Assembly (NCBI GenBank): GCA_964365675.1
Contig: CAYIQX010000001.1
Location: 1 to 39,289, forward strand
Direction: 5' to 3'
Length of the DNA: 39,289 nt
From: an uncultured Candidatus Saccharibacteria bacterium
GTDB lineage: Bacteria > Patescibacteriota > Minisyncoccia > Sungbacterales > SURF-37
Position 1 is the first letter of the stretch; the number at the start of each line of letters is the position of its first letter. This document shows positions 10,159 through 18,994 of the stretch, one piece after another. The position numbers and the translations under genes are program-made. The notes below the pieces were generated by a model that was given only the letters and a program-made list of their open reading frames with translations, ran no database searches and had not been told where the DNA came from.

Positions 10159-10397
10159 ATGAAGGACGTCCAAAAGCGGGTAGATGAGCGGGTCTAGCAG
10201 TTCAAAATCCCGTACTGGCCGCACGAGATCCTTGCCCGGCTCATTGGGGAAGTGGGAGAGCTTGGCCGCGAGGTAAACCATTTTTTTTCGGCCCCAAAAA
10301 GAAAAAGTCGTCCGAAACGGAAGGGATAACGAGCGCTACGAGAAGAAATCTGCGAACCAAAACACCGCCCCATGAGGCGGTGTTTTGGTGGGAGTAA
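10159..10397 (+). pseudogene. MazG-like nucleotide pyrophosphohydrolase remnant (in-frame TAG, frameshift at a T8 run, truncated)
   Basis: MKDVQKRVDERV-TAG(10195-10197)-QFKIPYWPHEILARLIGEVGELGREVNHFF resembles the N-terminus of small MazG/YpjD-type proteins. After T8 (10281-10288) the expected FGPKKKKSSETEG continues in another frame. The C-terminal half is missing. Confidence 0.5.
10357..10388. terminator. Bidirectional terminator-like hairpin
   Basis: 13-bp perfect stem CCAAAACACCGCC/GGCGGTGTTTTGG with a 6-nt loop. A-run and T-run sequences are built into the stem ends. Confidence 0.6.
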
Positions 10398-10450: not shown

Positions 10451-10534
10451 TGCGGACTGGCAGGAAAAGTGAATAATTGGCGTTGCCAATCTCGAGAGGG
10501 CTCGTTATGCTTGAGGAAAGTGCTTGAGGAAAGA

Positions 10535-11419
10535 ATGACACGCTTGACGATGGCCTATGCCCGTCGCCTGACTGCATCTCTGCTTGCGGTCTTAGTTTCA
10601 TTTATTCCTGTTCTTGCGTCTCCGGTGGCGCATGCCGCGCCACCTGCCGCGCCGCCTTCTCCGCCGGAAGTCATCGAATTCTGTCCTGATCCACCCTGCA
10701 TTTTTGATGTGCCGTCGGGCGGCAGTGATGGCGGGGGCAGAACCGGGGCAGGACCGGAGGCCAGCGGAGGGACTCCGGGAGGACAAGCTCCCAACGCGCA
10801 GAGCCCTACGCCTGATTCTGCTGTTTCCGATGGAATCGGCCGCGTAGCGGATCGCTCTACCTTTGGAGGGCTCGGCAGAGGTTTTTCCGAGGGCTTTACC
10901 GGAATTACCCAGGGGCCGTCACCCAATGATCCCGGCGCCGGCATCCCCGAAGGACCAGGTGGGGTCAGCAATGCCAATACCACGAGTGCCGGGGTGGGCC
11001 TGAGCACGGCCGCCGGTCTAGCCGCTCTCGCGCTTGCCGCGACCGGGCCGGTGGGATTTGTGGTCGGCCTGGTTCTTGGCCTCGCGGCGCTTGCCCTGAA
11101 TGCCGCCGGCGTGGATGTATCATCCTTTGGAACAATAGGCGAAGGGCTGACCGCGCTGGGCCAAGCCGTGGAAGGCATCGGCCGGGCTATCGGGAATTTC
11201 TTTAGCAGCTTATTCGGTGGCCCGGGAGGAAGGGGAGACGGACCAGAAGGTCCCCCCGGAGACCCCCCTGATAACCCAGGACCTGGCGGCGTTGAGGGTG
11301 TTCCTTCCTCACCCCCTTCTGATCCCAGTGAAGGCAATCCAGATGCGGGCAGTGGAGCTGGGCTTGGCACCGGCGGGCCGGACAGCGATGGCGGCAGTAG
11401 CGATGGCGGCGGCGATTAG
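10535..11419 (+). CDS. Secreted Gly/Pro/Ser/Asp-rich low-complexity protein with one central ~45-aa hydrophobic core
   Basis: Signal peptide MTRLTMAYARRLTASLLAVLVSFIPVLASPVAHA. Hydrophobic core VGLSTAAGLAALALAATGPVGFVVGLVLGLAALALNAAGV. Acidic Gly-rich tail. A 13-nt tandem duplication (10508-10533) carrying GAGGAAAG precedes the ATG. An alternative start is 10550. Confidence 0.55.
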   Translation: MTRLTMAYARRLTASLLAVLVSFIPVLASPVAHAAPPAAPPSPPEVIEFCPDPPCIFDVPSGGSDGGGRTGAGPEASGGTPGGQAPNAQSPTPDSAVSDGIGRVADRSTFGGLGRGFSEGFTGITQGPSPNDPGAGIPEGPGGVSNANTTSAGVGLSTAAGLAALALAATGPVGFVVGLVLGLAALALNAAGVDVSSFGTIGEGLTALGQAVEGIGRAIGNFFSSLFGGPGGRGDGPEGPPGDPPDNPGPGGVEGVPSSPPSDPSEGNPDAGSGAGLGTGGPDSDGGSSDGGGD

Positions 11420-12405
11420 ATGCGCCCTAAGAGAGCGCCGCCCACGAGAGCTGCAACAAGCAGGACTGCAATAACCGCTCGTCTTAGCGGTAGCCGCCAT
11501 TGCACAAGCATTTTCCACTGCTGTTCCCACCAGCCAGGGTCCGGTACGAGTATGAAAACACTGACCCATGCCAGCCACGCCGGCATGATTGTCGTCGTAA
11601 CGAGCGTAACAAAGTGCCAGGAGAGTCCGAAAGCAATGGCGAATGTCACGGTTTTTCGCCAAAGAAGTGCGGGTCCGAGTAGCAAGTAGCCGACGTACCC
11701 CAAGGCGGACAGAACCCGGACCGGCATTTCGGCGCGTAGTGCCAGGCGGGATGCCCACGGCTGGCTCCAGGTTATACCCTGCAGGGACCAGAGAACGGTT
11801 TCCCCGCGGATCCACTCCCGAAAGCCGTATGTCGTTTTCGTTGCGGCATTCAGTATGTACAGGAGCGCCAAATGCCACACCATGACGCGGCGAACTGCCG
11901 CCGGGCTTTTGGGTACTGCGTCAGACGCCCAGCTTCCCGTCCGCCTGCGAGCCTCCCAGGAGAAATACGCTCCGGCGCGCGAGAACACAAGAAGGAAGAG
12001 GTAAATGGCGATGACTCGCCGGATGCTGTTCGTAGCAAAACTCTCAAGAAGCGAGAGGTAGGAATGGATGACAAAGGCAATGAGCGCGGCAGAACGGGTG
12101 CGATAACCGATGGTAACCGCGGCCAGGCAGATGATAAGAAAAATTGAAAGCGCGTAGGCGATGAACGGAGATAGCGGAACGACAACCTTTAGCCAGGGTG
12201 CGGGCTGGAGCGGCCACAAAAATCCCGAGTTGGTATAAAACGCTGGAACATACGGAAGACGCGGCACATGATAGAGCAGAGCCGAGACGCCAAAACAGAT
12301 GCGGAAAAGCGCAAGCCCGATTACCGGCTCCGGGCAGAACCAATAGCCATCCCAGCGTTCAAGGAAGGACCTCCCAATGTGTGCACGGTGGTTACCTCTG
12401 GACAT
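11416..12405 (-). CDS. HTTM-domain (vitamin K-dependent gamma-carboxylase-like, SdpB-like) polytopic membrane protein
   Basis: N-terminal hallmark WFCPEPVIGLALFRICFGVSALLY (WFxP..LAxFRIxFG). Multiple TM segments. IGYRTRSAALIAF fits the HTTM pattern. Start chosen at ATG 12405 (M25 of the ORF). Confidence 0.55.
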   Translation of the reverse strand: MSRGNHRAHIGRSFLERWDGYWFCPEPVIGLALFRICFGVSALLYHVPRLPYVPAFYTNSGFLWPLQPAPWLKVVVPLSPFIAYALSIFLIICLAAVTIGYRTRSAALIAFVIHSYLSLLESFATNSIRRVIAIYLFLLVFSRAGAYFSWEARRRTGSWASDAVPKSPAAVRRVMVWHLALLYILNAATKTTYGFREWIRGETVLWSLQGITWSQPWASRLALRAEMPVRVLSALGYVGYLLLGPALLWRKTVTFAIAFGLSWHFVTLVTTTIMPAWLAWVSVFILVPDPGWWEQQWKMLVQWRLPLRRAVIAVLLVAALVGGALLGRI

Positions 12406-12892
12406 AGCGGCAGGAGGCAATATCGCGGACGCGATGGGGAGGTACGGTTGTATCCGGAGGCAGAGACCACCAGCCATCGGAAAGAGTCAGCGCGGTGATT
12501 CGGGCACCGGAAGAATCATCTCCGGCGTTTATCCGATTCAAGGCCCAGCCGCAAAAATCTCTGCGGAGATTACGATTGGATAACATAAGATTGCGCAGAC
12601 CCCAGCGAAGCGGATGCCCTTCGTATACCCAATGGTTTGAATAATGGAAGAGGGTATAGAGGTCGATATTCTTTACTACTCCATTCACGGTGAGTCCACG
12701 GCTAATTATCTCCACGTGCCGGGGACTACCTCTGACGAACATCGTCCACCGCCCCCATGGAAAGAGTGCGATGTCGCCGAACGGGCGCCAGCGCGGCGGA
12801 AGGCCGGAGGCGAAGATATAGCCAAGAAACAAGATTATAAGTGCCGATTTCCACCAGGTTCTTTGCATACTATGGATTAACCATAGCGGCAT
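12392..12892 (-). CDS. SdpA-like / HTTM-accessory membrane-anchored protein
   Basis: N-terminal TM (WWKSALIILFLGYIFASGL), then FPWGRWTMFVRGSPRHVEIISRGLTVNGVVKNIDLY, resembling the W-x-(M/F)F-x-P motif of SdpA-type proteins and HTTM/LMF tails. The stop overlaps the downstream HTTM start by 14 nt. An alternative start is 12868. Confidence 0.45.
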   Translation of the reverse strand: MPLWLIHSMQRTWWKSALIILFLGYIFASGLPPRWRPFGDIALFPWGRWTMFVRGSPRHVEIISRGLTVNGVVKNIDLYTLFHYSNHWVYEGHPLRWGLRNLMLSNRNLRRDFCGWALNRINAGDDSSGARITALTLSDGWWSLPPDTTVPPHRVRDIASCRYVQR

Positions 12893-12965
12893 AATTCACT
12901 ACTGCCAATCCGACCGGGCTGTCCACAATTGCAGGAGTTCTACCGCCGGGCTATACTGCTCCCAT

Positions 12966-13155: not shown

Positions 13156-13184
13156 TTGACATAGCGTTTCCAGCATGCTACACT
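13156..13184 (+). promoter_or_regulatory. Canonical sigma70 promoter of cassette 1
   Basis: TTGACA (13156-13161), 17 nt, TACACT (13179-13184). SD AAGGAGGTG lies at 13200-13208. Confidence 0.6.
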
Positions 13185-13212: not shown

Positions 13213-13464
13213 ATGTGCCGAGTTCAGCGAGTCCTGTGTGCGCTCCTCTTCACCACCCTCGTGTCTCTGGCCGCGGCTGGTTGCAGCGCCACCGACCTCT
13301 TCGTGTTCCCGCGTGTGCTGCAGAACGCGACCATGACGCATGAGGAGCGAGGGAAGCTCGAGGACGAGAAGTGGGAACGCGAGTACCGGCGCCTGGACGA
13401 GGCGCGGAAGGCCCAGGAGGCCGCCGCCACGAAGAAGGTCGCCCCTGCCCAGCCGGCGAAGTAG
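13213..13464 (+). CDS. Small lipoprotein (83 aa), compositional outlier
   Basis: Lipobox LAAAGC in MCRVQRVLCALLFTTLVSLAAAGCSA. Charged helical C-terminus. Strong SD. By hand count 71 of 83 codons end in G/C, and all Lys codons are AAG. Confidence 0.65.
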   Translation: MCRVQRVLCALLFTTLVSLAAAGCSATDLFVFPRVLQNATMTHEERGKLEDEKWEREYRRLDEARKAQEAAATKKVAPAQPAK

Positions 13465-13534: not shown

Positions 13535-13858
13535 TCAATTACTCCTCTCTTCCGAAGAACCAAAATTAGTAGGATCCCGCTCACTGGTGAAACCGCGATA
13601 GCCGCTAGACGGCCCCTTTTCGAGCGTGACGCCAGTAAATTCCGGCTCGGCCTTTATGTTCACTTGCTTGGCCATTTCCGCTTCGAGTTTGCGCCCTACC
13701 TCCCGCCGCACGTTCCAGATGCCCCATAGGCCCAGTGCCAGGACGGCAACGCCGGTGGCGGTAGTCAGCGCAATGTCCGACTTCGATTCGTCTGGTCCGA
13801 AAAACGCGAGAACGAGGAGCCAAAGACCTATGGCGGATATTGCGATCTCCCGCTTCAT
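13535..13858 (-). CDS. Hypothetical two-TM small membrane protein (107 aa)
   Basis: AISAIGLWLLVLAFFG and VAVLALGLWGIW form the TM segments. The ATG lies 1 nt after the stop of the upstream gene (13860-13862). Confidence 0.5.
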   Translation of the reverse strand: MKREIAISAIGLWLLVLAFFGPDESKSDIALTTATGVAVLALGLWGIWNVRREVGRKLEAEMAKQVNIKAEPEFTGVTLEKGPSSGYRGFTSERDPTNFGSSEERSN

Positions 13859-13859
13859 T

Positions 13860-14771
13860 TCATTCGGGAATAATTTCTTTGATCTTCGGGATAGAAACGC
13901 AGGAAAGCGTAATGGTCTTCTTTGTTTCTCCTCCTTCGCCGGTACAGCTGAGCGTTATCGGCGTGTCGCCGCCCTGCTTGCATTCAATATCCACCGTGCC
14001 CGAGGCGTTGACGCCACCCACTCCTTGATCAAGCGCGCATGATGTTGCTCCGCTTGAGGTCCAGGAAAGTGTTACTGCTGTTCCTACTCCGACATTAAGC
14101 GTTCCACCGGCACTTGCGGTGTTTCCCCCGCTGGATGCATTAAAACTCGATGTTGGCGCTGCTGCGGCCGATCCACCTAACTGGCATGTGCCATCGGCCT
14201 TGCAGGTGTAGCCCGATGGGCAATACTTTTCTGCCTGCCCTACGGACGCACAGCAAACATTCCCAAAGGGCACACAGCTCTTACCACCGCATAGGTAGTA
14301 CCCCGCCTGGCATGCACCGACAGCACCCACCCCGCTCGAGGCGGCTGTGCCGCTACCTCCACCCGCTCGGCTACTTCCACCCCCGCCGCAACCGGTATTC
14401 GTCGGGGAATCCGTGCCGGCAAGGCACATTGCGGTCCCAATCGTATTCACCGTTGATGCAGCTAATCCCGTTACCCCTACCGCAAGCATAACCGGGAATA
14501 GGTTGCTCGCCGTGATAACTGCGGGCGCCCCAAGCACTCCTACCAAGCCGGCTGGGACCGCCGCCGCAACAACTACCGCAGCCATTACCGCGACGGCTGC
14601 GAAAGCAACTACCGCAACAGCGATGAGCGCAATACCGATACCGGTTATCGCTCCCTTTGCAAAAGCAAACGTCGGCGCCAGCCCCATAATGACCACCTGA
14701 ACCGAGATGGTCACAAAACGTCGCGCCGCAAGAGGCCTGTTAGCGATAGACCGGAGTGAAGCGAGGGACAT
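13860..14771 (-). CDS. Membrane protein with an Ala/Val-rich TM region, Gly linker, 10-Cys module and Ig-like C-terminal domain
   Basis: ACQAGYYLCGGKSCVPFGNVCCASVGQAEKYCPSGYTCKADGTCQ, followed by TLNVGVGTAVTLSWTSSGATSCALDQG...ITLSCTGEGG. The start is uncertain (14771, 14687 or 14852). Confidence 0.55.
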   Translation of the reverse strand: MSLASLRSIANRPLAARRFVTISVQVVIMGLAPTFAFAKGAITGIGIALIAVAVVAFAAVAVMAAVVVAAAVPAGLVGVLGAPAVITASNLFPVMLAVGVTGLAASTVNTIGTAMCLAGTDSPTNTGCGGGGSSRAGGGSGTAASSGVGAVGACQAGYYLCGGKSCVPFGNVCCASVGQAEKYCPSGYTCKADGTCQLGGSAAAAPTSSFNASSGGNTASAGGTLNVGVGTAVTLSWTSSGATSCALDQGVGGVNASGTVDIECKQGGDTPITLSCTGEGGETKKTITLSCVSIPKIKEIIPE

Positions 14772-15024
14772 AGCCGGATTGCGTGAGCCACTGCATAAGA
14801 AAGAAGGCGAAGATGTTCCACACGATCGTCCATCCGATGAGGAGCCACCCATAACGGCGATACTCCGGCTCCGTCAAAAAGGCGATTCCGAGTACCAACC
14901 CTCCAATCCCGGCAAGGGGCCCGGATACCAATATAGCGATCAAAAGCCACTTCTTTTTACGAAGGGCGATGAGGCCGGAAGATGGTGCTACGGGATAAGA
15001 AGGAGCTGCTGAAATCTGGTTCAT
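14740..15024 (-). CDS. Hypothetical small polytopic membrane protein (94 aa)
   Basis: WLLIAILVSGPLAGIGGLVLGIAFL and YGWLLIGWTIVWNIFAFFLMQW form the TM segments. First gene of the 15024-13535 minus-strand operon. Confidence 0.5.
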   Translation of the reverse strand: MNQISAAPSYPVAPSSGLIALRKKKWLLIAILVSGPLAGIGGLVLGIAFLTEPEYRRYGWLLIGWTIVWNIFAFFLMQWLTQSGYVPRFTPVYR

Positions 15025-15100
15025 ATTTAAATAGGAGCCTTAATTACAACAGCATAGACGCGAAGGGGACCGTAATCAAGCTATGTACGAGCCGCAATCC

Positions 15101-15128
15101 TTGACTTTTTGGCTGCAGAGACTATAAT
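15101..15128 (+). promoter_or_regulatory. Canonical sigma70 promoter of cassette 2
   Basis: TTGACT (15101-15106), 16 nt, TATAAT (15123-15128). SD GGAGGTG lies at 15159-15165. Confidence 0.6.
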
Positions 15129-15170
15129 ATAAAGCAGAAATAACGCACTTCATCTAATGGAGGTGAATCC

Positions 15171-15764
15171 ATGCGGTGGCGCATGCTTGCGCTCATCCCG
15201 ATCGCTCTTGCCGCCTCGGCCTGCGCCAGTATGGGCGCCAGGCCGAACCTCACCCCGAACTTCAACCCGGCCGCTACCCCGAAGAAGATCGCGGTGGAGC
15301 CGGCGGTGATCTACGAGGACTTCAGTTTCGGCCTCTTCGCGGCCAACAGCGAGAAGATCGGGCTTCTGCGCCACATTCCCGGCAAGCTTGCCCACCCCGA
15401 CCCAGAACTCTCAAGATTCTTCTCCGAGAGTTACGCTCAGTTCTTCTCCATGTTCGGGTTCGAGATCGTCTCACCCGACGATCCCGGAGCGCTCCGCTTG
15501 AAGATCAGCGTCGTACCTAAACTGGTTTTCCCCAGTCCTATGGCCGGAAGCGGACAGGCCGTCCTCCAAGTCTATCAGGACGACCGGGTGGTTGCCTACT
15601 ACGGCTTCGTCATCCTCCGGAAGGCCTGGGGACCCGGGTCGGGGCGACCGATCTGGGAGGATGATCACGCCAAGATCTCGCTCTTCCTGAGCGGGAAGCA
15701 CCTCGCTGAACTCCTCAGCGGCTCCGCCCATCCCGGCGCAGCCAGCCCCGCGGCCGACAAGTAA
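15171..15764 (+). CDS. Lipoprotein (197 aa), compositional outlier
   Basis: Lipobox LAASAC in MRWRMLALIPIALAASACAS. Strong SD. Lys codons are almost all AAG. No family recognised. Confidence 0.65.
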   Translation: MRWRMLALIPIALAASACASMGARPNLTPNFNPAATPKKIAVEPAVIYEDFSFGLFAANSEKIGLLRHIPGKLAHPDPELSRFFSESYAQFFSMFGFEIVSPDDPGALRLKISVVPKLVFPSPMAGSGQAVLQVYQDDRVVAYYGFVILRKAWGPGSGRPIWEDDHAKISLFLSGKHLAELLSGSAHPGAASPAADK

Positions 15765-15784
15765 CTGTCGGCCCCGGGGTTTTT
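15746..15784. terminator. Terminator hairpin enclosing the cassette 2 stop codon, shared with the convergent speE-like gene
   Basis: CCCCG-C-GGCCGACA [agtaac] TGTCGGCC-C-CGGGG, followed by T5 (15780-15784). Confidence 0.65.
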
Positions 15785-15785
15785 C

Positions 15786-17519
15786 TTATTTCGATCTGAA
15801 TAGAGCACCCAGCGGTCCAGCTCGAGTAATGACGTATTCGATATCGCTACGAACTTGCTCCACTGGCGCACGGAAGCGGGCGAAAATATTGCCTGTTGCC
15901 GTTTCCACTTCAATGAATTTTCCAACGAAAGAGCTGGGAATACCGAATGACCGAATGGGATGAAATAACGAATTGGGGACAACACCATCTTCCACGGCGG
16001 AATATAAATAAGGACCGGTGACCCCCGGGGTGGCCGTCGGCATCTCTCCGATTCTCTGATACAGCGTCGCAATTGTGATCGCCGAAGGCGAGGCGGCGAT
16101 GAACGCGATCTCAAACAAGCCGGGTATTCCGATGGTTGGGTCTGCTTCCGGTGGATGGAATGCAAGCGTTCTATAGCCGGCGCTTTTCAATGTCTCCTTG
16201 ACGATTGCGTGGAAACGCGATGGAAGCCCCCCGGTATGAACAACAATAATGCCGGACGAATCCAGATATTTATTGACGGCGAGATAGAATTCTTTTGAAT
16301 AGAGCCGGGTAAGCGCGGGATCTGTTGGGTCGGGAAAATCAACGAGTACTATGTTGAAGCGGGATTGAGCGCGCCGCTCCAAAAGCCATCGAAAGGCGTC
16401 ATCATGGACGATCGTAAGGCGCGGATTTGATAACGATCCCCTGTTCAACTCGCGTAACAATGGGTGCGTCATGGCCAGGTCCGTTACCATCTCATCAATA
16501 TCCACGAGCGTTATTTCCTCGACCGAAGGGTACTTCAGCACTTCCCGCGCGAGCAATCCGTCGCCGCCGCCGAGAATGAAAATGCGGCGGGCGCGCTCGC
16601 CCATGAATGACACCACCGGGTGCGCGAACGTCTCGTGGTAGCGTTTTTCTAACACACCCTCCTGAAATTGCAGCTCGCCATTCAAAAAAAGCGACAGTTT
16701 CCCATCGCGATTTTTTATCAGTTGAATGCGCTGGTAGGGAGATGTCCTGTCAAAAAGGACCTCGCTGCCGGCAAAAATCTGGCGAGTGAAAAACTCATCA
16801 AGCCGCGGCGCATAGATAAATCCGACGGCAAGAATCAGTATCCCCGCGAAAAGGAGTATCCTCCCGAAGCGCGAGAACGCGCCAAGCGGCCATGCCGGCG
16901 AGAACCCGGCGGCGAGGATAACGGCCGCCGCCAAATTTAAAAACCCCACGAGAAATCCGGTCTTGAGAAAGCCGAGCGCAGGCAGGAGTAGGAGGGGGAA
17001 AAGCACTGACGCTACGAGCGCCCCGGCATAATCCCAGAAGAATACCTTAGCCAGGGCATCTTTCAGCGTACGCGATGCCGCGGCGATACGGGTGAATATC
17101 GGCACCTCAATGCCCACCAAAACCCCGATGATAAAAATCGTGCCGAAACTGACGGCATGAAAAAGGATCTCGGTGAGGCCGGCTTGGAAAAGGAACATAA
17201 AGAGATTATTGAATACGTGGCCGCCAAGGTACCGGAATAGCCCGGCATAGAGGGCGAATATCAGCGGCGCGGCAAATCCACCGATAGTACCGAGGAGAAC
17301 TTCGATAGTGAGAAACCTTCGTAATAAGTTCTCCTCCCACTTTCCTGACCACCATGCGCCCGTACCGAGCGCAAAAAGGAAAATGCCGATGGTGAGGGAA
17401 AAGTACGTTACGGTCGCCCCCAAAAGATAGGAAAGTACGGCCGCGAGGATTAACTCGTACAGAATGGCTGCGCCGGCCATCACAAATACTGCGGCGAACA
17501 TTAAGCGGGACGAACTCAT
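15786..17519 (-). CDS. speE: Polyamine aminopropyltransferase (spermidine synthase-like) fused to an N-terminal polytopic membrane domain
   Basis: About 230 aa of TM helices, then ILGGGDGLLAREVLKYPSVEEITLVDIDEMV and VLVDFPDP (SpeE-type Rossmann motifs). An extra C-terminal ~120 aa is present. Confidence 0.75.
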   Translation of the reverse strand: MSSSRLMFAAVFVMAGAAILYELILAAVLSYLLGATVTYFSLTIGIFLFALGTGAWWSGKWEENLLRRFLTIEVLLGTIGGFAAPLIFALYAGLFRYLGGHVFNNLFMFLFQAGLTEILFHAVSFGTIFIIGVLVGIEVPIFTRIAAASRTLKDALAKVFFWDYAGALVASVLFPLLLLPALGFLKTGFLVGFLNLAAAVILAAGFSPAWPLGAFSRFGRILLFAGILILAVGFIYAPRLDEFFTRQIFAGSEVLFDRTSPYQRIQLIKNRDGKLSLFLNGELQFQEGVLEKRYHETFAHPVVSFMGERARRIFILGGGDGLLAREVLKYPSVEEITLVDIDEMVTDLAMTHPLLRELNRGSLSNPRLTIVHDDAFRWLLERRAQSRFNIVLVDFPDPTDPALTRLYSKEFYLAVNKYLDSSGIIVVHTGGLPSRFHAIVKETLKSAGYRTLAFHPPEADPTIGIPGLFEIAFIAASPSAITIATLYQRIGEMPTATPGVTGPYLYSAVEDGVVPNSLFHPIRSFGIPSSFVGKFIEVETATGNIFARFRAPVEQVRSDIEYVITRAGPLGALFRSK

Positions 17520-18994
17520 AAACGGAGAGTATTAAAAAATATCCCGTAGTGTCTCATCGGGTCGACGGAAACGGCATCCAGCCGGCCGTCGGGCGCAAGA
17601 ACTCCAGCTCGTTCGTCTTTTCCGGTGATCACGATCGGAACGTTCAGCCACACTGCCTCGGTGCGCCGTACGCCGTCCGTGAGCCGCAGGTACTGACCCC
17701 TGCCAAGAGCGACCCAGCTATTATTCCCGGTGTGCACGACAAATTGCGCGCCTTCTTGGACGGCGGCCCTGATATCCCACGGGTAGTGGACTTCAGCGCA
17801 GATAGGGGATGCGAACGAGAAACCGCCCGTATGAAGCAGGTGCGGTTCTCCCGCCGCATATTGGTATTGGGGATCGAAGATGGGACTTTCCGCGGATATC
17901 TCTGGTCGGATGCGGCCGGCCCAATTCCAATAGAACGGCCGCCAGCGGCCGAACGGCCAGTACTCGCCGCCAATGGCCAAACGCACCTTGTTGGCGCGGC
18001 CGGCAAGCGCCCCATCGCGGCTGAAAAGAAGCGTGGTGTTATAACGCTCCCCGCGCTGGATAGTGGTAAATGTCGCACTAACATCCACCGCTAAGTCAGC
18101 CGCAAGCCGGCGATAGGCCGCAATGAGCACCCCGCCGGATTCAATGCCGAACGCCGCCAACGCTTCCGGATCGGCATCATGCCATGACTCAAGATCGATC
18201 ATGTCTTCCGGCAACAGGACCAGATCAAGCGGCTGGCGGCGTAATTCATGCCGTAGCGGTTCCAGCATCGCGGCCAGGTGTTCGGCCGCGATCTGCCGCT
18301 CACTTGGCGAGAGAATATCATAGGGGAAATTAAGCGCGGAGTCGAACACGGCATCCGTCGAGACCGCGGCCACGCGGAGCTCACGGGGGCGACTCTGGTA
18401 CGCCGCGCCATTTTGGTGAAGCACCCAGCGGGATGCGCTAAAACCGGCGACCAGCAAGAGCACGATGGCGCCGATCCACAGATGTCGCTCCCGTTTGAAT
18501 AAAGTTATGATGCCCCCGGTAAGAACTGCGTTCACGACAGCTCCGAAGAGTGTGAGGCCGGCAATGCCGCCCCAACGCGCCAGCCCCAGGAAGGGTGATA
18601 CGGCAAGCGCGTTGCCCTGCGCCATGACATATACCGGCAGGAACGTGTAACGCGCTTCCAGGAGATCCCAGAACGTCCACAAAAATGGCAGCGAAATGGC
18701 CGCGGCTCTGGCTCCGACAAAGCGGCGAACGAGATGGAACGATACCGGCAAGCCGAGGAAAAGCAGAATGGAAGCCATCCAGCCGAAGGGCTCCGCGGCA
18801 AAATAGACCACCCCGGCCGCAAAGATGATCCGGAAAAGAGCAGTTCCGATGAGGAGGCGCACCAGCCGGCATTCACGCTGAAAAAATAAAAATAGGGGGA
18901 CCAGCCACGCGAGGGCGAGAACCCAAGCGTAGGGCAGTGCCGAAAACGCTCCAATACCGAGAAGCGCAGAAACAACGGGAAGTGCGAGGAACAT
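17516..18994 (-). CDS. lnt: Apolipoprotein N-acyltransferase
   Basis: N-terminal multi-TM region plus a CN-hydrolase domain with LVLLPEDM (Glu), NKVRLAIGGEYWPFG (Lys) and ICAEVHY (Cys). An ATGA overlap links it to the speE-like gene. Confidence 0.75.
   Translation of the reverse strand: MFLALPVVSALLGIGAFSALPYAWVLALAWLVPLFLFFQRECRLVRLLIGTALFRIIFAAGVVYFAAEPFGWMASILLFLGLPVSFHLVRRFVGARAAAISLPFLWTFWDLLEARYTFLPVYVMAQGNALAVSPFLGLARWGGIAGLTLFGAVVNAVLTGGIITLFKRERHLWIGAIVLLLVAGFSASRWVLHQNGAAYQSRPRELRVAAVSTDAVFDSALNFPYDILSPSERQIAAEHLAAMLEPLRHELRRQPLDLVLLPEDMIDLESWHDADPEALAAFGIESGGVLIAAYRRLAADLAVDVSATFTTIQRGERYNTTLLFSRDGALAGRANKVRLAIGGEYWPFGRWRPFYWNWAGRIRPEISAESPIFDPQYQYAAGEPHLLHTGGFSFASPICAEVHYPWDIRAAVQEGAQFVVHTGNNSWVALGRGQYLRLTDGVRRTEAVWLNVPIVITGKDERAGVLAPDGRLDAVSVDPMRHYGIFFNTLRL

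What the first reader, a model, noticed from the sequence alone, without database searches (positions are those of the whole stretch)
10535..12892. Split SdpA/SdpB-like HTTM membrane pair abutting a Gly/Pro-rich precursor-like secreted protein
12392-12892(-) encodes a 166-aa anchored protein containing FPWGRWTMFVRGSPRHVEIISRGLTVNGVVKNIDLY. I recognise this as the W-x-(M/F)F-x-P...G...dl motif seen in SdpA-type proteins and in the soluble tails of HTTM/LMF proteins. Its stop overlaps by 14 nt the start of 11416-12405(-), a polytopic protein that opens with the HTTM hallmark WFCPEPVIGLALFRICFG. In Bacillus subtilis, SdpA plus the HTTM protein SdpB are needed to produce the SdpC toxin peptide. 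Here the HTTM stop codon physically overlaps (TTAG, 11416-11419) the stop of a convergent gene. That gene encodes a signal-peptide protein built of low-complexity Gly/Pro/Ser/Asp flanks around a single ~45-aa hydrophobic core. This is the architecture one would expect of a precursor from which a membrane-active peptide is excised. The chemistry of bacterial HTTM proteins is largely unassigned, so a compact three-gene module would be a tractable new case.
Basis: partly seen in the sequence, partly recalled or inferred. Interest (0 to 1): 0.7.

Follow-up and report, generated by a model that had tools for sequence, protein, structure and literature searches.

The report
Split vitamin-K-carboxylase-like membrane enzyme pair
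Two overlapping genes in an uncultured groundwater bacterium most likely encode the two halves of a membrane enzyme related to the human vitamin K-dependent carboxylase, with a small partner protein of a previously unclassified family, but nothing yet shows that the neighbouring glycine/proline-rich secreted protein is its substrate.

Summary
B (11416-12405, minus strand) is a true HTTM protein: Pfam gives 44 bits, and a profile that includes it hits human GGCX at 1.5e-18. It keeps the catalytic Lys218, Trp223 and Phe286/His287 equivalents but not the Glu/CO2-site residues.

A (12392-12892, minus strand) belongs to a tiny family of about 30 sequences among billions, with no Pfam or NCBIfam match. 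It has an N-terminal TM helix, a near-invariant FPW..W-x-M-F motif and two conserved Cys. Every informative locus but one, close or distant, has an HTTM or HTTM+DCC1 gene immediately downstream of A.

Neither protein matches the SdpA/SdpB or DUF5819 models. The architecture, however, parallels the DUF5819-HTTM(-DCC1) pairs recently modelled as a "split GGCX". A's W-T-M-F resembles GGCX's quinone-capping loop (W399-D-M401-M402).

C (10535-11419, plus strand) is conserved only in four closely related syntenic genomes. It is convergent, has its own promoter-like site, is absent from distant A-B loci, and is not homologous to known partner precursors.

Verdict: the pair is a new variant of a known kind, and the three-gene "toxin module" is unproven.

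The parts
12392..12892 (-). Gene A: a 166-aa (or 158-aa from ATG 12868) single-pass membrane protein. It is the founding window member of an unclassified HTTM-partner family.
   Evidence: The ORF is. Only 4 close homologues were found among 5.8 billion proteins, 19 representatives among 1.84 billion and 11 with the family profile. There is no Pfam or NCBIfam hit. The AF2 model has pLDDT 82. No fold match was found in PDB or BFVD.
12803..12865 (-). N-terminal transmembrane helix of A. Proposed equivalent of the last TM helix of GGCX and of the TM helix of DUF5819 proteins.
   Evidence: The hydropathy peak is, and the model has a helix at residues 2-22. The equivalence is an inference from the preprint 10.64898/2026.08.19.745780.
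12737..12763 (-). FPWGRWTMF motif of A. P37, W38, M43 and F44 are near-invariant. Proposed lid over the quinone pocket of B.
   Evidence: The alignment is. This stretch has low pLDDT in the monomer model. DUF5819 has QNW-x-LF-x-P at the same position after its TM helix. In GGCX LL9 (W399-D-M401-M402), Met401 stacks on vitamin K. Leu59/Phe60 of a DUF5819 protein contact the predicted vitamin K pocket.
11416..12405 (-). Gene B: a 329-aa polytopic HTTM-domain protein. It ends in an extra C-terminal TM helix rather than a DCC1 domain.
   Evidence: PF05090 scores 44.3 bits, E=2.2e-11. Profile A7, which includes B, hits human GGCX at E=1.5e-18. No DCC1-like ORF occurs in the window.
11836..11838 (-). 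Codon of B Lys190, aligned with the GGCX catalytic base Lys218.
   Evidence: The alignment is and column conservation. K190 is K in 10 of 11 diverse HTTMs. W198=W223, W263=F286 and H264=H287 are also conserved. N159/H160, D263 and F299 are not (S127/I128, Y240, A276).
12392..12405 (-). 14-nt overlap between the stop of A and the start of B, consistent with translational coupling.
   Evidence: Called A-B junctions in relatives range from -61 to +13 nt, apart from one of 184 nt.
10535..11419 (+). Gene C: a 294-aa secreted or membrane Gly/Pro-rich protein, convergent on B. It is a candidate substrate only; the link is unproven.
   Evidence: The ORF is. It is conserved in L004, L006 and L013. It has no Pfam or NCBIfam hit. 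The sense frame is favoured over the antisense ORF.
10535..10636 (+). Predicted signal peptide of C (residues 1-34, with AHA|A).
   Evidence: The sequence is. This region is conserved in the four homologues.
10985..11128 (+). Gly/Ala-rich hydrophobic core of C (residues ~151-198). It probably forms a TM hairpin with a TGP turn.
   Evidence: Hydropathy is. It is the most conserved internal block.
11180..11221 (+). Conserved GRAIGNFFSSLFGG segment of C.
   Evidence: It is invariant or near-invariant in the four homologues.
11416..11419 (.). TTAG: the shared bases of the two convergent stop codons.
   Evidence: This overlap is not conserved in relatives.
10483..10511 (+). Sigma-70-like promoter match (TTGCCA-17-TATGCT) 24 nt upstream of the start of C.
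   Evidence: This is a consensus match only.
10359..10386 (.). 11-bp GC-rich hairpin flanked by A and T runs (AAAACACCGCC-CCATGA-GGCGGTGTTTT). It separates the rpsI/mazG-remnant unit from C.
   Evidence: Read directly from the sequence.
12880..12908 (-). Sigma-70-like promoter match upstream of A.
   Evidence: This is a consensus match only.
13213..13464 (+). Divergently transcribed 83-aa lipoprotein (lipobox LAAAGC). It is conserved upstream of A in the close clade.
   Evidence: Homologues are at L004 4461-4736(-), L006 1566-1805(-) and L001 9361-9636(-).

Best explanation
A and B are the two subunits of one membrane enzyme of the HTTM / vitamin K-dependent carboxylase (GGCX) superfamily, in a 'split' form.

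B provides the polytopic HTTM core, with the quinol-binding and deprotonating site (Lys190, Trp198, Trp263, His264).

A is translated from the overlapping upstream gene and inserts with its N-terminus in the cytoplasm. I propose that its TM helix packs against B like the last TM helix of GGCX. Its FPW..W-T-M-F loop would close over the quinone pocket like GGCX loop LL9. Its small extracytoplasmic alpha/beta domain, probably locked by a Cys106-Cys153 disulfide, would take the position of the GGCX clamp that recognises the substrate.

The Glu-binding and CO2-trapping residues of GGCX are not conserved. The chemistry is therefore probably not Glu gamma-carboxylation. A different quinol/O2-driven modification of a secreted or membrane protein or peptide at the outer face of the membrane is more likely.

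The substrate is unknown. The adjacent secreted protein C is the only local candidate, and no evidence beyond adjacency in close relatives links it to the pair.

What is shown: HTTM membership of B, conserved catalytic-site residues, A-B linkage across the family, and motif conservation. What is inferred: physical complex formation, the lid role of W-x-M-F, quinol dependence, and the protein nature of the substrate.
For: HTTM membership of B:
- PF05090 scores 44.3 bits against a cutoff of 27.7.
- A profile of 11 diverse HTTMs that includes B hits human GGCX at E=1.5e-18.
- That alignment pairs K190=K218, W198=W223, W263=F286 and H264=H287. The roles of these residues are taken from PMC12647623.

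A-B linkage:
- In every locus with DNA downstream of an A homologue, an HTTM ORF of the matching branch follows. These loci are the window, L003, L004, L006, L007, L010, L011, L012, L013, L014 and L016. L017 and L018 have HTTM+DCC1 fusions downstream.
- Gene junctions range from -61 to +13 nt.

Features of the A family:
- It has an N-terminal TM helix, near-invariant P37/W38/M43/F44 and near-invariant C106/C153.
- The AF2 model is confident (pLDDT 82) except in the motif loop.

Parallel system:
- DUF5819 proteins have a TM helix followed by QNW-x-LF-x-P. They lie immediately upstream of HTTM(-DCC1) genes on Bacillus, Virgibacillus, Macrococcus and Streptomyces plasmids.
- A preprint's AF3 model of such a pair resembles whole GGCX. 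The DUF5819 TM helix superposes on a GGCX TM helix, Leu59/Phe60 contact the vitamin K pocket, and Lys189/Trp195/Phe273 are conserved.
- GGCX LL9 (W399-D-M401-M402) caps vitamin K, and the Met401 backbone contacts Lys218.
Against: - No statistically significant sequence or fold similarity links A to DUF5819, SdpA or the GGCX lumenal region. hhalign gave P=0.05 and 0.35, hmmsearch gave about 0 bits, and Foldseek against PDB found nothing at E<=0.001.
- I could not co-fold A with B, so the complex is inferred.
- Several GGCX catalytic residues are not conserved in B: N159/H160, D263 and F299.
- No DCC1-like or other quinone-recycling partner is present in the window.
- A close relative's contig (L004/L015, syntenic, ~65-72% aa identity) is labelled Candidatus Saccharibacteria. 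From general knowledge, this group usually lacks quinone biosynthesis, so the availability of a cofactor is unclear.
Confidence: 0.62

Rival explanations
1. This is the first reader's model, an SdpABC-like toxin production module. A+B would process the secreted precursor C and release or modify its ~45-aa hydrophobic core as a membrane-active peptide.
For: - C has a signal peptide, a Gly/Ala-rich hydrophobic core and disordered flanks. [quoted passage not shown]
- DUF5819-HTTM modules on plasmids are regularly preceded by small secreted proteins with a Gly/Ala-rich amphipathic core. A secreted peptide partner is therefore a recurring theme for this kind of pair.
- C is retained next to B in all four close relatives.
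Against: - C is convergent, not co-transcribed. It has its own promoter-like site and is preceded by a terminator-like hairpin.
- The four genomes that keep C also keep the neighbouring ribosomal-protein genes, so the adjacency may be plain synteny.
- Distant A-B loci (L007, L014, L017, L018) have no C-like gene.
- C is not homologous to the small precursors.
- A and B fail the SdpA and SdpB models.
- No immunity gene of the SdpI type was recognised.
- At 294 aa with two long disordered regions, C looks more like a surface or membrane protein than a bacteriocin precursor.
Confidence: 0.15
2. A-B is a housekeeping envelope-maturation factor. It would act as an LMF1-like chaperone or redox helper, or as a modifier of lipoproteins or other envelope proteins or lipids. 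C would be an unrelated neighbouring surface protein.
For: - The pair lies in a core chromosomal region between rpoA-rplQ-rplM-rpsI and murA/mreB. It is not on a mobile or biosynthetic island.
- A small lipoprotein gene is conserved divergently upstream of A.
- In L007 the pair is flanked by three paralogous Cys/His-rich secreted proteins. This shows that the neighbours vary with lineage.
- The Glu/CO2-site residues are missing.
Against: - There is no direct evidence for any substrate.
- The family is extremely rare: about 30 sequences and a single hit among 185,579 GTDB species representatives. That rarity does not fit an essential housekeeping role.
Confidence: 0.2
3. C is not a real gene. 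It would be a chance open frame in GC-rich low-complexity DNA, or the antisense ORF 10555-11370 would be the true gene.
For: - An antisense ORF of 271 aa is also open.
- A gene caller annotated an antisense 103-aa ORF at this position in L004.
- The two frames share their third codon positions, so the wobble pattern does not discriminate between them.
Against: - The sense ORF is intact in all four genomes. Its signal peptide, hydrophobic core and GRAIGNFF segment are conserved while the flanks vary.
- Amino-acid identity and synonymous-only changes are higher in the sense frame: 70% against 62%, and 93 against 77 codons.
- A GAGGA Shine-Dalgarno sequence lies 5-6 nt before the ATG.
- The antisense ORFs are broken or of variable length in L004.
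Confidence: 0.03

Closest known systems
DUF5819 (PF19136) + HTTM(-DCC1) gene pairs of Bacillales and Streptomyces, modelled as a split bacterial GGCX-like complex (bioRxiv 10.64898/2026.08.19.745780)
   Same: - A small protein with an N-terminal TM helix, a W-x-(L/M)-F motif shortly after it, and a ~130-160-aa extracytoplasmic domain.
- That gene lies immediately upstream of, and often overlaps, an HTTM gene.
- The HTTM protein has a conserved Lys, Trp and aromatic-His.
- Distant members of the A family (L017, L018) even have the same HTTM+DCC1 fusion partner.
   Different: - A does not match PF19136, and hhalign gives only P=0.05.
- B does not match TIGR04033, whereas the DUF5819-linked HTTMs do.
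- The window has no DCC1 domain or gene.
- There is no upstream small secreted Gly/Ala-rich protein of the plasmid type.
- The host is an uncultured groundwater bacterium; a close relative's contig is labelled Candidatus Saccharibacteria.
Bacillus subtilis SdpA/SdpB/SdpC (and the paralogue YitP/YitO/YitM)
   Same: - A small protein plus an HTTM-family membrane protein encoded in tandem.
- The sizes of A and B resemble those I recall for SdpA and SdpB.
- A nearby secreted protein has a signal peptide and a hydrophobic segment.
   Different: - No match to NCBIfam SdpB (TIGR04033), and no SdpA-named model among the Pfam or NCBIfam hits.
- C is convergent rather than the third gene of the operon, and it is much larger and Gly/Pro-rich.
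- No sdpRI-like immunity or regulator genes are present.
- I could not retrieve SdpA or SdpC sequences for a direct comparison.
[quoted passage not shown] PDB 9L54) and bacterial MloH
   Same: - The HTTM core of B aligns with GGCX residues 48-330, with K218, W223, F286 and H287 equivalents conserved.
- The TM helix plus W-T-M-F of A parallels the GGCX last TM helix plus loop LL9 (W399-D-M401-M402).
   Different: - GGCX and MloH are single chains, whereas here there are two genes.
- Equivalents of N159/H160, D263 and F299 are absent.
- The model of A has no detectable fold match to GGCX chains.
- The clamp B jelly-roll and the C-terminal domain are absent.

Membership tests
HTTM domain (Pfam PF05090) | Significant match to the family HMM over the polytopic core | tested here: met
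   B scores 44.3 bits, E=2.2e-11, against a gathering cutoff of 27.7. Profile positions 7-249 of 259 are covered. All relatives are also annotated PF05090.
HTTM / GGCX superfamily | Conserved quinol-deprotonating Lys (GGCX K218), with the stacking Trp (W223) and the aromatic-His pair (F286-H287) | tested here: met
   Profile A7 against PDB GGCX gives E=1.5e-18. The alignment pairs K190, W198 and W263-H264 with these residues, and they are conserved across 11 diverse HTTMs.
Vitamin K-dependent Glu gamma-carboxylase (GGCX proper) | Glu-carboxylate binding N159/H160, D263 next to K218, and the CO2-trapping F299 | tested here: not met
   The aligned positions in B are S127/I128, Y240 and A276. Residue roles are taken from PMC12647623.
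SdpB family (NCBIfam TIGR04033) | Match to the SdpB-family HMM | tested here: not met
   B has no hit at E<=1. As a positive control, Bacillus, Streptomyces and Ralstonia HTTM proteins hit TIGR04033 at 1e-15 to 1e-22.
SdpA family (Pfam PF17418 / TIGR04034) | Match to the SdpA HMMs | tested here: not met
   None of the 28 A-family members scanned against Pfam, nor the 21 scanned against NCBIfam, has a hit to any SdpA-named model at E<=1 (E<=10). Caveat: I had no SdpA sequence for a positive control or for a profile-profile test, and the accession numbers are from memory.
DUF5819 (Pfam PF19136) | Match to the DUF5819 HMM | tested here: not met
   No A-family member hits it, whereas the plasmid proteins hit at 1e-24 to 1e-27. 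hhalign of A3 against a DUF5819 alignment is collinear over 104 columns but not significant: P=0.052, probability 1%.
Split GGCX-like HTTM pair (architecture class) | A small N-terminally anchored protein with W-x-(L/M)-F after the TM helix, encoded directly upstream of an HTTM gene | tested here: met
   Searches cover the A family. Searches cover the DUF5819 and Ralstonia examples.
Split GGCX-like HTTM pair (architecture class) | Physical complex in which the partner's TM helix and motif loop dock onto the HTTM quinone pocket | not testable with these tools
The motif loop is low-confidence in the monomer model, which is compatible with this feature but not evidence for it.
SdpC-type toxin precursor | A secreted precursor co-transcribed with the pair, conserved wherever the pair occurs, from which a hydrophobic peptide is excised | tested here: not met
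   C is convergent with its own promoter-like site. It is present only in 4 close syntenic relatives and absent from L007, L014, L017 and L018. Excision cannot be tested computationally.
DCC1-like thiol-disulfide oxidoreductase partner | A DCC1/DUF393 domain fused to or adjacent to the HTTM protein | tested here: not met
   A local DCC1 HMM finds no ORF in the window or in the close-clade loci. It is found in L017-L029.

The most novel reading that the evidence does not exclude
The A-B pair is a quinol-dependent protein-modifying enzyme in a bacterium of a lineage that probably cannot make quinones. Its substrate would be the neighbouring protein C, whose Gly/Ala-rich hydrophobic core is modified or released as a membrane-active product. 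That would be an SDP-like system with a new partner family, a new precursor type and possibly a borrowed (host-derived) cofactor.
Probability: 0.1. Interest if true: 0.75.

Novelty: new variant of a known kind. Interest (0 to 1): 0.45.

Why it matters
Bacterial HTTM proteins are common, yet their chemistry is assigned in very few cases: SDP maturation, MloH and a presumed role in linaridin maturation.

This locus adds a third, sequence-unrelated-looking partner family alongside SdpA and DUF5819. All three show the same layout: a TM helix, a W-x-(M/L)-F loop and a small ectodomain.

That supports the idea that the lid over the quinone pocket and the substrate-recognition module of GGCX-type enzymes can be supplied in trans and evolve fast.

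It also places such an enzyme in a reduced-genome groundwater bacterium, which raises the question of which quinone it uses.

The same survey shows that the plasmid-borne DUF5819-HTTM-DCC1 modules carry a conserved small secreted Gly/Ala-rich protein next to them. In cultivable Bacillus and Streptomyces, that is a more tractable route to the substrate question than the window itself.

Tried and rejected
- Direct comparison with B. subtilis SdpABC. 600 pattern matches were found but none was confirmed, so my recollection was wrong or unusable. SdpA was therefore tested only through the library HMMs.
- First AF2 model of A with 4 sequences. pLDDT was 53, so it was discarded. The 21-sequence model (pLDDT 82) found no fold match in PDB or BFVD.
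- Sequence searches of PDB with B alone, the B-family profile and the A profile found nothing. Only the broadened HTTM profile reached GGCX.
With the B alignment it returned only the already known L004 contig and one 1.2-kb metagenome contig.
- tblastn of A against plasmids found no match even at E<=10.
- P0023, an 863-aa protein with five weak matches to the A profile, turned out to be a cohesin/CE2-type protein and was treated as spurious.
- The codon-position test for C against its antisense ORF is uninformative because the two frames share third positions.
- hmmsearch of the plasmid small-precursor profile against C gave about 0 bits.
- An Rfam scan of the window found no RNA family.


Full report
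**Observation**

The three ORFs exist exactly as described.

- A is 12392-12892(-), 166 aa. Databases hold the 158-aa form starting at 12868.
- B is 11416-12405(-), 329 aa. Its ATG lies 14 nt inside the 3' end of A.
- C is 10535-11419(+), 294 aa. Its TAG shares TTAG with the TAA of B.

Hydropathy and composition confirm one N-terminal hydrophobic helix in A and a polytopic B. For C they confirm a signal-peptide-like N-terminus ending in AHA|A, 22% Gly, 13% Pro, no Lys and a single hydrophobic block at residues ~151-198.

The genomic setting is a core chromosomal region. rpoA-rplQ-rplM-rpsI lies on one side, and PEGA, murA and mreB lie further along on the other.

B matches Pfam HTTM (PF05090, 44.3 bits, cutoff 27.7). 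Neither A nor B matches any NCBIfam model at E<=1. In particular B does not match TIGR04033 (SdpB family), and no SdpA-named model appears for A.

As a control, HTTM proteins from Bacillus, Streptomyces and Ralstonia plasmids hit TIGR04033 at 1e-15 to 1e-22. The model is therefore in the library, and B is simply further away. I had no positive control for the SdpA model.

**How rare is A, and is it tied to B?**

- A has only four close homologues among 5.8 billion clustered proteins.
- A profile of those finds 19 representatives among 1.84 billion.
- A 21-sequence profile finds 11 in the word-indexed search, all true members and none with a Pfam domain.

The family alignment shows an N-terminal TM helix, a near-invariant (F/Y)PW..W-x-M-F stretch, conserved Gly residues and two near-invariant Cys (C106, C153). 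The Cys pair suggests an extracytoplasmic, disulfide-bonded domain; this is inference.

I fetched every contig I could for close and distant members and scanned all six frames with family HMMs. In every locus that has DNA downstream of A, an HTTM ORF follows. The called junctions range from a 61-nt overlap to a 13-nt gap, apart from one 184-nt gap in L013.

The only exception is the 1.5-kb contig L002, where a GC-rich Ala/Leu ORF follows A. Two other assemblies of the same or nearly the same A protein (L003, L013) do have the HTTM gene, so L002 is probably chimeric or a strain variant.

In the most distant branch (P0030, P0031; about 25-30% identity over partial alignments) the partner is a 430-445-aa HTTM+DCC1-like fusion. 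A and B are thus a conserved, probably translationally coupled pair.

**What the pair resembles**

A preprint of August 2026 (10.64898/2026.08.19.745780) reports an AlphaFold 3 model of a DUF5819 protein (N-terminal TM helix plus DUF5819) with its neighbouring HTTM+DCC1 protein. According to that report:

- the complex resembles the whole human GGCX structure;
- the TM helix of the small protein superposes on a GGCX TM helix;
- the DUF5819 domain sits where the GGCX clamp sits;
- Leu59/Phe60 touch the predicted vitamin K pocket;
- MloH is a fused version.

I recovered such modules from Bacillus, Virgibacillus, Macrococcus and Streptomyces plasmids, plus an unannotated equivalent in Ralstonia. 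Their small proteins carry QNW-x-LF-x-P (EWTMFTP in Ralstonia) shortly after the TM helix. A carries W-T-M-F in the same place.

In human GGCX the loop LL9 contains W399-D-M401-M402. According to PMC12647623:

- LL9 is highly conserved and covers the vitamin K pocket;
- Met401 stacks on the naphthoquinone ring, and its backbone contacts the catalytic Lys218;
- the loop moves on substrate binding.

In the AF2 monomer model of A (pLDDT 82 overall) the motif loop is the only poorly defined part. That fits a loop which orders only on its partner; this too is inference.

**Catalytic residues of B**

A profile of 11 diverse HTTM proteins that includes B hits GGCX in the PDB at E=1.5e-18. The alignment gives the following correspondences:

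| B residue | GGCX residue | Role in GGCX | Conserved? |
|---|---|---|---|
| K190 | K218 | catalytic base | yes (10 of 11 sequences) |
| W198 | W223 | stacks on Lys218 | yes (11 of 11) |
| W263-H264 | F286-H287 | F286 stacks beneath the quinone ring | H invariant, W aromatic in 10 of 11 |
| S127/I128 | N159/H160 | Glu-binding | no |
| Y240 | D263 | adjacent to K218 | no |
| A276 | F299 | CO2-trapping | no |

The quinol-activating half-site therefore looks intact while the Glu-carboxylation half-site does not.

**Limits of the homology claim for A**

No A-family member matches the Pfam DUF5819 or SdpA models. Profile-profile comparison of the A family with an 8-sequence DUF5819 alignment is collinear over 104 columns (TM on TM, motif on motif) but not significant: P=0.052, probability 1%. 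Against the GGCX fragment the result is P=0.35.

HMMER gives about 0 bits for DUF5819 and GGCX. It gives a weak full-length match to the Ralstonia protein only (E=2e-4 for a single-sequence search). Foldseek finds no match in PDB or BFVD at E<=0.001.

I therefore file A as an architectural and motif-level counterpart of DUF5819/SdpA-type partners, not as a member of either family.

**The third gene, C**

C is a real, conserved gene. The ORF is intact in L004, L006 and L013, with a conserved signal peptide, hydrophobic core and GRAIGNFFS segment, while the low-complexity flanks vary. Sense-frame statistics are somewhat better than those of the antisense ORF, although the two frames share third positions.

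Its link to A-B rests only on adjacency in four genomes. Those genomes also keep the neighbouring mazG (or a gene at its position)-rpsI-rplM-rplQ-rpoA block, so the adjacency may be plain synteny. Further points against a link:

- C is convergent on B.
- It has a promoter-like site 24 nt upstream and a strong hairpin before that.
- The stop overlap is unique to the window.
- Distant A-B loci have other neighbours. L007 has three paralogous Cys/His-rich secreted proteins. L017 has a 46-aa ORF and a second DCC1-like ORF. L014 has a small TM protein.

These have a Gly/Ala-rich amphipathic core and, in most, a C-terminal ..FD(K/L/Q). SdpC is likewise a secreted protein with a hydrophobic domain. 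A secreted, Gly/Ala-rich hydrophobic partner is therefore a recurrent theme.

C is not detectably homologous to those proteins. It is three times larger and lies on the opposite strand. I put the substrate hypothesis at about 0.1-0.2.

**Other context**

- No DCC1-like ORF is present in the window.
- The only hit among 185,579 GTDB species representatives is the L004 contig, titled 'uncultured Candidatus Saccharibacteria bacterium'.
- Several relatives come from 0.1-0.2 µm filter fractions of a site labelled 'Hain'.
- From general knowledge, such bacteria usually lack quinone biosynthesis, which makes the cofactor question interesting. I could not test this.

**Verdict**

The HTTM call, the A-B pairing and the motif insight are right. 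The SdpA/SdpB family label is not met, and the three-gene precursor module is unproven.

The most likely reading (0.62) is a two-subunit, GGCX-like HTTM enzyme. Its small subunit belongs to a new, very rare family, and its substrate is unknown. This is a new variant of a known kind.

Interest is moderate at 0.45. The locus broadens the emerging 'split GGCX' picture and extends it to an uncultured groundwater bacterium, but more tractable examples of the class exist on Bacillus and Streptomyces plasmids.

Noticed in passing
window 10159-10386: Remnant of a mazG-type pyrophosphohydrolase gene after rpsI. The N-terminal MKDVQKRVDE.., a frame change, ..QFKIPYWPHEILARLIGEVGELGREVNHFF, another frame change at a T/A homopolymer, and the C-terminal ..GRDNERYEKKSANQNTAP are all recognisable against the intact 110-aa MazG of L004 (7411-7743). 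The catalytic middle part is deleted. This is either a pseudogene or a deletion combined with homopolymer assembly errors.
   Followed up: partly
window 13535-18994: About 5.5 kb is present between the small lipoprotein gene and the PEGA gene that is absent from the relatives L004 and L006, where the two genes are about 200 nt or less apart. The extra DNA carries a 107-aa TM protein, a 330-aa hydrophobic/Gly/Cys-rich protein, a 197-aa secreted protein, a membrane-fused spermidine-synthase-like gene (15786-17519) and an Lnt-like CN-hydrolase gene (17516-18994).
   Followed up: partly
window 13860-14852 (-): A 330-aa protein with a ~90-aa Ala/Val/Gly hydrophobic region, followed by Gly/Ser-rich and Cys-rich segments. 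It has no Pfam hit. It is another low-complexity membrane or surface protein of the same general style as C, but it is not homologous to C (the C-family HMM finds only C in the window).
   Followed up: partly
window 13213-13464 (+); L004 4461-4736(-); L006 1566-1805(-); L001 9361-9636(-): A small lipoprotein (lipobox L-A/T-x-G-C, charged coiled-coil-like tail) is conserved divergently upstream of gene A in all close relatives. A TTGACA-17-TACACT promoter match lies at 13156-13184. It might be functionally linked to A-B or might simply be syntenic.
   Followed up: partly
window 10555-11370 (-): A long antisense ORF (271 aa, Pro/Ser/Ala/Arg-rich) lies opposite gene C. It shares third codon positions with C, which keeps it open. 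It is most likely a shadow ORF. A gene caller picked an antisense ORF instead of the C homologue in L004.
   Followed up: yes
L002 794-1558 (and L001, where the contig ends right after A): In one 1.5-kb assembly of the P0003 strain, gene A is followed by a very GC-rich Ala/Leu-rich membrane ORF instead of the HTTM gene. Other assemblies of the same or a near-identical A (L003, L013) have the HTTM gene. This is probably a chimeric contig or a strain-level insertion.
   Followed up: partly
L007 72-848, 852-1949, 3480-4709: In a distant relative (A 34% identical), the A-HTTM pair is embedded, on the same strand, among three paralogous secreted Cys/His-rich proteins with repeated C..H..GH motifs (BLASTP E=4e-11 between two of them). 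They have no Pfam hits. They are possible lineage-specific substrates or partners.
   Followed up: partly
L019 2824-3159; L024 1236-1541 and 1789-2094; L025 926-1573; L026 1840-2151; L027 2043-2375; L028 2010-2369; L029 2008-2367: Plasmid-borne DUF5819-HTTM(-DCC1) modules of Bacillus, Virgibacillus, Macrococcus and Streptomyces are consistently preceded by one or two ~100-120-aa 'hypothetical' proteins. These have a signal peptide, a Gly/Ala/Lys-rich amphipathic core (e.g. WAAVGKAAAKGVAWGAGW) and, in most, a conserved C-terminal ..FD(K/L/Q). They look like the cognate substrates or precursors of these modules. Some loci also carry an S8 peptidase or a serine hydrolase.
   Followed up: partly
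[not shown]
   Followed up: partly
L017 2192-2680 (-): A second, stand-alone DCC1-like ORF lies convergently downstream of the HTTM+DCC1 fusion gene in this distant A-family locus.
   Followed up: no
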